This document shows positions 15,501-18,500 of a DNA stretch of 64,000 bases, piece by piece. The stretch lies in NCBI RefSeq assembly GCF_003334355.1, contig NZ_QOWP01000004.1. One strand, 5' to 3'. The position numbers are program-made. Position 1 is the first letter of the stretch. Each line of letters opens with the position of its first letter. This stretch comes from Escherichia coli (GTDB lineage Bacteria > Pseudomonadota > Gammaproteobacteria > Enterobacterales > Enterobacteriaceae).

Positions 15501-18500
15501 TATCAGTGCCATCATTCCGCCTTCCCTGTCTTTCTCTAAATGTTTTAATCAGCGAGGGGGATCTTCGCTGATTAAATAAATAGCGGTAATGCGTTTTATT
15601 CCCATTCGTATTTTTAATAAATGAAGTTTATATTTTACCTTTTGCAAATAATAAAATAACAAATTATAGTGACGCCACAGCAACAAATATAACCTTTGTG
15701 GAGCACTATCATGCTGAAACCAGAAATGATTGAAAAACTTAATGAGCAGATGAACCTGGAACTGTACTCTTCACTGCTTTATCAGCAAATGAGCGCCTGG
15801 TGCAGCTATCATACCTTCGAAGGTGCTGCCGCGTTCCTGCGCCGCCACGCCCAGGAAGAGATGACACATATGCAGCGTCTGTTTGATTACCTGACTGATA
15901 CCGGAAACTTACCACGTATTAATACCGTTGAATCTCCGTTTGCTGAATATTCTTCACTTGATGAATTATTCCAGGAAACCTATAAACACGAACAATTAAT
16001 CACGCAGAAAATTAACGAACTGGCTCATGCTGCAATGACCAATCAGGACTACCCAACATTTAATTTCCTGCAATGGTATGTTTCTGAGCAGCATGAAGAA
16101 GAGAAACTGTTCAAATCGATTATTGATAAATTAAGCCTGGCAGGCAAAAGCGGCGAAGGTCTGTATTTTATCGACAAAGAACTCTCTACCCTCGACACAC
16201 AAAACTAATGCTCTCCGGCGGCAGGTTTTCTGCCGCCGTTTCAAATCAGTGACGGCAAATCTTACTCTGATCGGTCGAAAAACCGTCTTCAGAAGGAATA
16301 AATTTGCCTTTTGCTGCCAGAAACGCCACCAGCTCTCCCGCTGTCATCCCTTCTGCCGAGCAGGTGTGAAAACGTGCCTGTTCACCAAAACGCGCTTTAA
16401 TCGCAGCTTCCAGACTGGCATGCGTATATTGCTCGCCTGATTCAATCATCATATTTAACACTTCATGACCGTGAATAGAGTCCATCGTTCCTCCTCAAAA
16501 AAAAGCCTAGCGTAGCGATTGCCGCTTATGAAGACTTTGCGCCAGCGCAGGACTGAATGCTTTTTATTGTACATTTATATTTACACCATATGTAACGTCG
16601 GTTTGACGAAGCAGCCGTTATGCCTTAACCTGCGCCGCAGATATCACTCATAAAGATCGTCAGGACAGAAGAAAGCGTGAAAAACAGAACCCTGGGAAGT
16701 GTTTTTATCGTGGCGGGAACCACAATTGGCGCAGGCATGCTGGCAATGCCGCTGGCTGCGGCAGGTGTTGGTTTTAGCGTCACGTTAATCTTGTTGATTG
16801 GGCTTTGGGCGTTGATGTGCTACACGGCGCTATTACTGCTGGAGGTGTACCAGCATGTTCCGGCAGATACCGGCTTGGGCACGCTGGCAAAACGCTATCT
16901 GGGACGCTACGGTCAATGGCTGACGGGCTTCAGTATGATGTTCTTAATGTATGCTCTGACTGCGGCATACATCAGCGGTGCTGGTGAATTGTTGGCCTCC
17001 AGCATCAGCGACTGGACAGGTATTTCAATGTCGGCAACCGCTGGCGTGCTGTTGTTCACTTTTGTTGCCGGTGGCGTGGTTTGTGTCGGAACTTCGCTGG
17101 TCGATTTGTTTAACCGTTTTCTGTTCAGCGCCAAGATTATTTTTCTGGTGGTAATGCTGGTACTACTGCTACCGCATATTCACAAAGTGAATCTTTTAAC
17201 CCTGCCGTTGCAACAGGGGCTGGCACTATCTGCAATCCCGGTGATTTTTACGTCGTTTGGTTTTCACGGTAGCGTGCCGAGTATTGTCAGCTATATGGAT
17301 GGCAACATTCGTAAGCTACGCTGGGTGTTTATAACCGGTAGTGCGATCCCCCTGGTGGCATATATTTTCTGGCAGGTGGCGACGCTTGGCAGCATTGATT
17401 CAACAACCTTTATGGGATTGCTGGCTAATCATGCCGGATTAAACGGGCTGTTACAGGCGTTACGCGAAATGGTGGCCTCTCCGCATGTTGAGCTGGCAGT
17501 GCATTTATTTGCTGATTTAGCCCTCGCCACGTCATTTCTCGGCGTTGCGTTAGGCTTATTTGATTATCTGGCTGATTTGTTTCAGCGTTCAAATACCGTT
17601 GGTGGACGATTGCAAACTGGTGCAATTACCTTTCTGCCGCCGTTGGCGTTTGCACTGTTTTATCCACGAGGATTTGTGATGGCGCTGGGTTACGCCGGTG
17701 TGGCGCTGGCGGTACTGGCATTGATTATCCCTTCACTATTGACCTGGCAAAGCAGAAAGCACAATCCTCAGGCGGGTTACCGGGTGAAAGGTGGTCGTCC
17801 GGCGCTGGTGGTGGTGTTTCTCTGTGGTATTGCTGTGATTGGCGTGCAATTTTTGATTGCGGCAGGGTTGTTACCAGAAGTGGGGTGATCAGATAGCCTC
17901 AAATTCCTTATTGGGTGCCAGAATTAACGCTGACACCCAATTTGACTTCTTAATGCAGGCAGCACTGCTTAAATTTCTTACCACTGCCGCACGGACAAGG
18001 ATCGTTACGCCCCGGTTTCTCTTCTGCTTTGATCGGTTGCTGAACAGCTTTTTCCTGCGGATGCGCCATCCAGTATGCATGTAAATCAAGCGCCGCCAGT
18101 CGAATGGCATCTACGCTCTCTTCAAACGCTTCTGGCGACATCTTCTCTACCCGCTCGAAGTTGTCCTCAGTACCGTGCAGCGCTATCGCCTCCAGCGCTG
18201 GTTTTAACGAATCGGGCAATGTTGACCAGTCAGAAAGTGCCACGCCCCGCATATAGCCAAAGCACCACTCCTCAACAATCGTCAGCTCGCTGCCATCAAC
18301 TTCTCGCAAGCCGAATAGCGGCTCAAACTGCTCCGGGAATTCGTTCAGACGCTCTGCGGTATCGGCCATATGTTGAAAGGCCAGGTTCATAAAGCGTGTC
18401 ATCTCTTTCTCAGACGCCCAGCGCGGCACATAGTCAGCCCCACCCCACACGGCAACCAGCCACTGTGCCGGTTCAATCTCTTGCGGAGAACTCAACACCG

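What the first reader, a model, noticed from the sequence alone, without database searches (positions are those of the whole stretch)
16568..16608. TyrR box upstream of tyrP
TGTACA-TTTATA-TTTACA (16568-16585) fits the TyrR box consensus TGTAAA-N6-TTTACA. A weaker second box is adjacent at 16591-16608. This is consistent with tyrP being repressed and activated by TyrR with tyrosine or phenylalanine.
Basis: partly seen in the sequence, partly recalled or inferred. Interest (0 to 1): 0.15.

Follow-up and report, generated by a model that had tools for sequence, protein, structure and literature searches.

The report
Known TyrR operator of tyrP

Summary
TGTACATTTATATTTACA lies at 16568-16585, with 11 of 12 matches to the consensus. 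TGTAACGTCGGTTTGACG lies at 16591-16608, with 9 of 12. Both sit in the 191-bp yecH/tyrP intergenic region of an E. coli chromosome, 109 and 86 bp before the tyrP GTG.

A scoring matrix built only from other TyrR-regulon operators ranks box 1 first of 63,983 positions, at 21.95 bits. Box 2 is not significant on sequence alone (rank 92).

Box 2 is supported by context:
- It lies exactly 23 bp from box 1, the spacing seen at aroF, aroP and aroL.
- Its right arm is the -35-like hexamer TTGACG.
- All 80 orthologous tyrP loci examined, from about 25 genera including Yersinia, keep a box pair 23 bp apart. The half-sites hardly vary and the spacers vary freely.

The K-12 MG1655 operator is identical. 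Secondary literature describes the mechanism: tyrosine plus ATP makes a TyrR hexamer that fills both boxes and represses. The phenylalanine-bound dimer on the strong box activates.

Positions relative to +1 are therefore inferred.

Verdict: already known, interpretation supported, low interest.

The parts
16568..16585 (.). Strong TyrR box (box 1), TGTACATTTATATTTACA, 11 of 12 consensus matches with G-N14-C intact
   Evidence: Sequence. Only match with at most 1 mismatch in the window. Independent matrix: 21.95 bits, rank 1 of 63,983. Half-site bases G,T,A,-,A (16569-16573) and T,A,C,A (16582-16585) are invariant or nearly so in 68 same-register orthologues, while the spacer varies.
16591..16608 (.). 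Weak TyrR box (box 2), TGTAACGTCGGTTTGACG, 9 of 12 matches with G-N14-C intact, 23 bp centre to centre from box 1
   Evidence: Not significant alone. TGTAA (16591-16595) and TTTGACGA (16602-16609) are invariant or nearly so in 68 loci while the spacer varies. A pair 23 bp apart is present in 80 of 80 loci. The same 23-bp strong and weak pair occurs at K-12 aroF, aroP and aroL.
16603..16608 (+). Inferred tyrP -35 hexamer TTGACG (5 of 6), identical to the right arm of box 2
   Evidence: Read from the sequence and a relaxed promoter scan. Invariant in 68 of 68 loci. The built-in scan did not report it because the -10 is weak.
16626..16631 (+). Inferred tyrP -10 hexamer TAACCT (3 of 6; T1, A2 and T6 present), 17 bp after the -35
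   Evidence: It is one of two 8-of-12 candidates with A2 and T6, and the only one whose -10 is conserved. T, A, C and T at 16626, 16627, 16630 and 16631 are invariant in 68 loci.
16632..16639 (+). Conserved G+C-rich discriminator GCGCCGCA and the probable transcription start (16637-16639, inferred). It is part of the palindrome CTGCGCCGCAG at 16630-16640.
   Evidence: Six of the eight columns are at least 98% conserved in 68 loci. No experimental start site was retrieved.
16640..16676 (+). Short unstructured tyrP leader with a ribosome-binding region (AGAAGAAAGC at 16667-16676)
   Evidence: Fold z-score +1.54, so less structured than the shuffles. No Rfam family. Positions -10 to -1 are conserved.
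16677..17888 (+). tyrP coding sequence (403 aa, GTG start), the regulated gene
   Evidence: ORF. RefSeq annotates it as 'tyrosine transporter TyrP' or 'tyrosine:H(+) symporter'.

Best explanation
This is the tyrP operator-promoter of E. coli, with the same sequence as in K-12 MG1655. A high-affinity TyrR box (16568-16585) lies upstream of the promoter. A low-affinity box (16591-16608) lies 23 bp further on, and its right arm is the -35 hexamer.

Without tyrosine, a TyrR dimer occupies only the strong box. From there, about 62 bp upstream of the inferred start site, it can contact the RNA polymerase alpha subunit and stimulate transcription, most strongly when phenylalanine is bound. With tyrosine and ATP, TyrR forms a hexamer anchored on the strong box. 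The hexamer also fills the weak box, covers the -35 hexamer and shuts tyrP off.

Shown here: the sequences, their statistical standing, identity with K-12, the geometry relative to a conserved promoter, and deep conservation of the two-box module. Taken from the literature: TyrR binding, the effector dependence and the alpha-subunit contact. Inferred: the -35, the -10 and the start site.
For: - Sequence and coordinates.
- Gene identity.
- The K-12 MG1655 upstream region differs only at 16496-16497, outside the operator.
- Box 1 ranks first of 63,983 positions with a matrix trained only on other TyrR operators.
- All 80 tyrP orthologues, from Escherichia to Yersinia, carry two G-N14-C boxes exactly 23 bp apart. 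The upstream box has 1-2 mismatches in 69 of them. The downstream box has 3-4 mismatches in all 80.
- The column-by-column footprint shows conserved half-sites, free spacers and an unconserved upstream flank.
- Differences among the sampled E. coli and Escherichia sequences fall mostly in spacers; of the 24 half-site positions only three in box 1 vary.
- The same 23-bp strong and weak pair occurs at aroF, aroP and aroL.
- 18 of 80 loci lack yecH upstream but keep the boxes, so the boxes belong to tyrP.
- Literature on the mechanism: PMC6524683, PMC3424551, PMC4374768, PMC7142922, PMC5791370.
- Deleting tyrR in Y. pestis raises tyrP 2.7-fold, and a TyrR motif lies upstream there (PMC4325908).
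Against: - Box 2 is not statistically distinguishable from background on sequence alone.
- Conservation of its right arm could be due to the -35 hexamer alone.
- No footprint, start-site map or primary paper could be read here. The positions relative to +1 are my inference.
- One secondary source (PMC4374768) says a 'strong' box overlaps the tyrP -35. In the sequence, the box that overlaps the only conserved -35-like hexamer is the weak one.
Confidence: 0.95

Rival explanations
1. Only box 1 is a real TyrR site. The 'weak box' is just the -35 promoter element plus an accidental TGTAA, and repression works some other way, for example from the strong box alone.
For: Box 2 scores 2.76 bits, rank 92 of 63,983 against about 81 expected. 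There are 40 matches with at most 3 mismatches in the window against 28 expected. The right arm coincides with TTGACG, which promoter function alone would conserve.
Against: - The left arm TGTAA (16591-16595) lies upstream of the -35 and is 65-68 of 68 conserved, at a fixed distance from the right arm. The six bases between them vary.
- The 23-bp offset from box 1 holds in 80 of 80 loci and recurs at aroF, aroP and aroL.
- The chance of such a site at one fixed offset is about 4e-4.
- Reviews state that the hexamer binds adjacent high- and low-affinity sites at tyrP.
Confidence: 0.03
2. The palindromes act on the divergent gene yecH, or bind another regulator of that gene, rather than controlling tyrP.
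For: The boxes lie in a shared divergent intergenic region. The centre of box 1 is about 91 bp from the yecH start codon at 16485.
Against: - 18 of 80 loci have no yecH within 1.2 kb upstream, yet they keep both boxes at a fixed distance from tyrP.
- The distance to the tyrP start codon is 109 bp in 67 of 80 loci.
- The sequence between box 1 and yecH is essentially unconserved, at 0.13 bit per column.
- No promoter-like site on the minus strand falls in the intergenic region.
Confidence: 0.02
3. The matches are chance A+T-rich palindromes in an intergenic region with no regulatory role.
For: 13 of 100 shuffles of the window contain at least one match with at most 1 mismatch somewhere.
Against: Box 1 ranks first by 9.5 bits with an independent matrix, and 0 of 30 random windows reach its score. 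It sits in front of a known TyrR-regulon gene. The half-site-specific footprint is conserved across about 25 genera.
Confidence: 0.005

Closest known systems
tyrP operator-promoter of E. coli K-12 (TyrR regulon; work of Pittard and colleagues, e.g. Andrews et al. 1991, Yang et al. 2004, Pittard et al. 2005, as cited)
   Same: The sequence is identical over the aligned operator and promoter. The only differences in the 181 bp upstream are at 16496-16497. The gene, the strong and weak box arrangement and the expected tyrosine repression and phenylalanine activation are the same.
   Different: Nothing detectable. The window comes from a strain that differs from MG1655 by two bases well upstream of the operator.
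Adjacent strong and weak TyrR box pairs of aroF, aroP and aroL
   Same: The centre-to-centre spacing is the same 23 bp, and one good and one poor G-N14-C box are paired (aroF -112/-89, aroP -88/-65, aroL -128/-105 relative to the start codons). According to the literature, all are filled together by the tyrosine-induced hexamer.
   Different: Reviews describe those operons as repressed only, apart from a non-productive divergent aroP promoter, P3, that TyrR activates. At tyrP the strong box sits far enough upstream to act also as an activator site.
mtr promoter (TyrR-activated tryptophan transporter)
   Same: It is a TyrR-activated transporter gene with a strong box upstream of the promoter.
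   Different: The best two mtr boxes found here are 30 bp apart, not 23. Reviews list mtr among the activated genes, not the tyrosine-repressed ones.
Class I activation as at CRP-dependent promoters (site near -61.5, contact with the alpha C-terminal domain)
   Same: The centre of box 1 is about -61.5 to -62.5 from the inferred start site. The literature calls TyrR a type I activator acting through the alpha subunit.
   Different: The protein family is different: TyrR is an NtrC-type protein acting at a sigma-70 promoter. The same protein becomes a repressor at the same promoter when tyrosine makes it hexameric.

Membership tests
TyrR box (operator site of the TyrR regulon) | 18-bp palindrome matching TGTAAA-N6-TTTACA; at least 10 of 12 matches makes a strong box, fewer makes a weak box (definition in PMC4374768) | tested here: met
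   Box 1 has 11 of 12 matches and is strong. Box 2 has 9 of 12 and is weak.
TyrR box (operator site of the TyrR regulon) | Invariant G and C of the two arms, separated by 14 bp | tested here: met
   G16569/C16584 and G16592/C16607 are present in the window. They are invariant in 68 of 68 same-register orthologues.
TyrR box (operator site of the TyrR regulon) | Scores like bona fide sites with a matrix built from other regulon members | tested here: met
   Box 1 scores 21.95 bits, within the 14.0-24.0 range of the training sites, and ranks first in the window. Box 2 scores 2.76 bits, which is expected for a weak box but is not discriminating.
TyrR box (operator site of the TyrR regulon) | A weak box must lie next to a strong box with suitable phasing | tested here: met
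   The gap is 5 bp and the centres are 23 bp apart, the same as at aroF, aroP and aroL. The spacing holds in 80 of 80 orthologous loci.
tyrP operator architecture (dual repression and activation) | Low-affinity site overlaps the promoter; high-affinity site lies upstream of the -35 at an activator position | tested here: inconclusive
   The geometry fits a conserved inferred promoter, TTGACG-17-TAACCT. No experimental start site or footprint could be retrieved. One secondary source words the overlap differently.
tyrP operator architecture (dual repression and activation) | Identity with the characterised K-12 sequence upstream of tyrP | tested here: met
   The operator and promoter are identical to MG1655 (NC_000913.3) in the alignment. 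The only differences upstream are at 16496-16497.
tyrP operator architecture (dual repression and activation) | TyrR protein binds the sites, and tyrosine with ATP or phenylalanine changes occupancy and expression | not testable with these tools
   Known only from the literature summaries. It needs footprinting, EMSA or reporter assays.

The most novel reading that the evidence does not exclude
The G+C-rich palindrome CTGCGCCGCAG (16630-16640) spans the end of the -10 hexamer and the probable start site, and most of its positions are invariant across about 25 genera. It might be a separate control element and not just a discriminator. It could set sensitivity to ppGpp/DksA, or be a contact for a further factor or for the third dimer of the TyrR hexamer. 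I found no description of it in the papers I could read.
Probability: 0.12. Interest if true: 0.3.

Novelty: already known. Interest (0 to 1): 0.06.

Why it matters
The finding confirms that the first-stage reader can recognise a textbook operator from raw sequence. It adds no new biology. The tyrP operator is a classic example of one regulator acting as activator or repressor at a single promoter, depending on its ligand and oligomeric state.

The comparative result adds a little. The two-box module, its 23-bp spacing and the strong and weak asymmetry hold in 80 of 80 tyrP orthologues examined, including Yersinia. This agrees with published regulon reconstructions that list tyrP among the most conserved TyrR targets (PMC5343134).

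Tried and rejected
- **Primary tyrP papers.** I tried Andrews 1991a/b, Lawley 1995, Yang 2004, Pittard 2005 and Yang 2007. None is held.
- **Full-text search for the box sequences.** There was no hit for the whole of box 1, and fragments of either box gave only unrelated hits.
- **Experimental start site.** I searched the Cappable-seq supplements for the expected coordinates and found nothing.
- **Built-in sigma-70 scan.** It reported no plus-strand promoter in the intergenic region, because the -10 has only 3 of 6 matches. A relaxed scan combined with conservation was used instead.
- **RNA-level control.** The leader is less structured than its shuffles and has no Rfam match. The GcvB study reports only a modest effect on a tyrP fusion and a predicted 7-bp pairing.
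- **Other TyrR sites in the window.** None was found. The next-best matrix hits cluster in an A+T-rich porin upstream region and score below every training site.
- **The boxes serve yecH.** Rejected on synteny.

Full report
**1. What is in the sequence**

The window reads ...attgTGTACATTTATATTTACAccataTGTAACGTCGGTTTGACGaag.... Box 1 has one mismatch to TGTAAA-N6-TTTACA. Box 2 has three. Both keep the G and C that lie 14 bp apart.

The boxes lie in the 191-bp gap between a minus-strand ORF (16246-16485) and a plus-strand 403-aa ORF that starts with GTG at 16677. A 401-bp query around the site is 100% identical to many E. coli chromosomes and is present in 5,421 of 5,426 complete genomes. RefSeq annotates the flanking genes as yecH and tyrP, 'tyrosine transporter TyrP'.

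In K-12 MG1655, tyrP is at 1,989,681-1,990,892. The 181 bp before its start codon differ from the window only at 16496-16497, and the aligned operator and promoter are identical.

**2. Is it more than chance?**

Box 1 is the only match with at most one mismatch in the 64 kb. By chance 0.14 are expected per window, and 13 of 100 shuffles have at least one somewhere.

To avoid circularity I took the upstream regions of aroF, tyrR, aroL, aroP, mtr, tyrB and aroG from MG1655. I located their G-N14-C boxes and built a symmetric weight matrix from the eight boxes with at most two mismatches, which come from six of these genes (tyrB gave none). tyrP was left out.

- Box 1 scores 21.95 bits, within the 14.0-24.0 range of the training sites. 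It ranks first of 63,983 positions. The next score is 12.4 bits, and none of 30 first-order Markov random sequences of window length exceeded 17.6.
- Box 2 scores 2.76 bits and ranks 92, where about 81 such positions are expected. The window holds 40 matches with at most three mismatches against 28 expected. On sequence alone box 2 is not significant.

Box 2's support comes from its context. A G-N14-C site with at most three mismatches occurs at 3.9e-4 per position, and this one sits exactly 23 bp, centre to centre, from box 1. The same 23-bp pairing of a good box with a poor one is seen in K-12 at aroF (-112/-89), aroP (-88/-65) and aroL (-128/-105).

**3. Comparative evidence**

A scan of one genome per species with the TyrP protein returned 80 orthologous loci at 78-98% protein identity. 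They come from Escherichia, Citrobacter, Salmonella, Klebsiella, Raoultella, Enterobacter, Kluyvera, Kosakonia, Leclercia, Lelliottia, Atlantibacter, Franconibacter, Trabulsiella, Yokenella, Yersinia rohdei and other genera.

All 80 have two G-N14-C boxes exactly 23 bp apart upstream of tyrP.

| Feature | Result in the 80 loci |
|---|---|
| Box 1 start relative to the GTG | -109 in 67 loci, -105 to -110 in 12, -234 in Yersinia |
| Mismatches in the upstream box | 1 in 28 loci, 2 in 41, 3 in 11 |
| Mismatches in the downstream box | 3 in 76 loci, 4 in 4 |

The strong and weak asymmetry is therefore itself conserved.

Column counts over the 68 loci in the same register give a clean footprint:
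- G, T, A, -, A (16569-16573) and T, A, C, A (16582-16585) are invariant or nearly so.
- T, G, T, A, A (16591-16595) and TTTGACGA (16602-16609) are also invariant or nearly so.
- Both 6-bp spacers, the 5 bp between the boxes and the whole flank upstream of box 1 (0.13 bit per column) vary freely.

In a sample of E. coli strains and other Escherichia, the differences fall mostly in the spacers, between the boxes and in the -35/-10 spacer. Of the 24 half-site positions only three, all in box 1, vary. The 86-bp operator and promoter stretch is present in 5,419 of 5,426 E. coli genomes.

Eighteen of the 80 loci have no yecH within 1.2 kb upstream, yet they keep both boxes. The module therefore travels with tyrP, not with yecH.

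**4. Promoter geometry (inferred)**

The tool's sigma-70 scan finds no plus-strand promoter. A relaxed scan gives five candidates with 8 of 12 matches. Two of them have A2 and T6 in the -10. Only TTGACG (16603-16608), 17 bp, TAACCT (16626-16631) is also conserved: the -35 is invariant and T, A, C, T of the -10 are invariant.

A conserved GCGCCGCA follows. A C-A dinucleotide at 16638-16639 is conserved in 67 of 68 loci, so the start site is probably at 16637-16639. That puts the centre of box 1 near -61.5 to -62.5 and the centre of box 2 near -38.5 to -39.5. The right arm of box 2 is the -35 hexamer itself.

The leader is short and unstructured, with a z-score of +1.54. It matches no Rfam family. 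Control is therefore expected at transcription initiation.

**5. How it works**

The held literature defines the consensus, the strong and weak classes and the essential G-N14-C. It states that weak boxes need an adjacent strong box, and that tyrosine plus ATP converts the TyrR dimer into a hexamer able to bind several sites (PMC4374768; PMC7142922).

For tyrP specifically:
[quoted passage not shown] - Activation uses the N-terminal domain and the alpha subunit (PMC5791370) in a type I manner.

The anatomy found here fits this account step by step. The strong box is at a class-I-like distance and the weak box lies over the -35. In Y. pestis, deleting tyrR raises tyrP 2.7-fold and a TyrR motif lies upstream (PMC4325908). 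A comparative regulon study lists tyrP among the most conserved TyrR targets (PMC5343134).

Binding and effector dependence are taken from the literature. The -35, the -10 and the start site are my inference. The sequence, the statistics and the conservation are shown here.

**6. A caveat on sources**

None of the primary tyrP papers could be opened. The box strings do not occur in the searchable library, and a look-up of the start site in Cappable-seq supplements found nothing.

One secondary source says a 'strong' box overlaps the tyrP -35. In the sequence it is the weak box that does, which matches the other reviews and my own recollection of the Pittard reviews.

**7. Comparison, novelty and verdict**

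This is the tyrP operator itself, not merely something that resembles it. All sequence-level membership features were tested and met. Protein binding cannot be tested with these tools. The novelty class is 'already known' and the interest is low.

The only feature I could not find described is the conserved G+C-rich palindrome CTGCGCCGCAG at 16630-16640, across the -10 and start region. It is most simply a discriminator constrained by promoter function. A separate regulatory role is possible but unlikely.

Noticed in passing
window 16630-16640: The perfect G+C-rich palindrome CTGCG-C-CGCAG overlaps the end of the inferred -10 and the probable start site. Eight of its eleven positions are at least 98% conserved in 68 orthologous loci, more than most of the leader. 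It is the only exact copy in the window. It may simply be a constrained discriminator. I found no description of it.
   Followed up: partly
window 60480-60590: Three of the four best non-tyrP TyrR-matrix hits (11.4-12.4 bits, below every training site) cluster in a roughly 500-bp very A+T-rich region upstream of a 367-aa ORF (60651-61754) annotated as a porin in other E. coli. Some strains carry an IS1 there. This is most likely a composition effect, not TyrR sites.
   Followed up: partly
window 16496-16497: These are the only two differences from K-12 MG1655 in the 181 bp upstream of tyrP (window CA, K-12 TC). They lie just upstream of the yecH start codon. The window is therefore from a strain other than MG1655.
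   Followed up: no
window 18811-19113 (minus strand): A tRNA cluster, Leu(TAA)-Cys(GCA)-Gly(GCC), corresponds to leuZ-cysT-glyW of K-12. In K-12 the 3' trailer of leuZ is annotated as the small RNA 3'ETS-leuZ.
   Followed up: partly
L001 6322-7401 (E. coli CFSAN061762): In this strain a SIR2-family protein gene lies about 600 bp beyond yecH-tyrP-yecA, in the region where K-12 and the window have the tRNA cluster followed by pgsA. No tRNA genes appear in its feature table. It may be an island inserted at the tRNA cluster.
   Followed up: no
L077 960-1203 (Yersinia rohdei): The same two-box module (TGTAAACATAACATTACA and CGTAACGTCGATTTGACA) is present, but 234 and 211 bp upstream of the start codon. 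This implies a leader about 125 bp longer than in Enterobacteriaceae.
   Followed up: no
literature (PMC4374768 introduction): This paper states that a strong TyrR box overlaps the tyrP -35. The sequence and other reviews indicate that the weak box does.
   Followed up: partly
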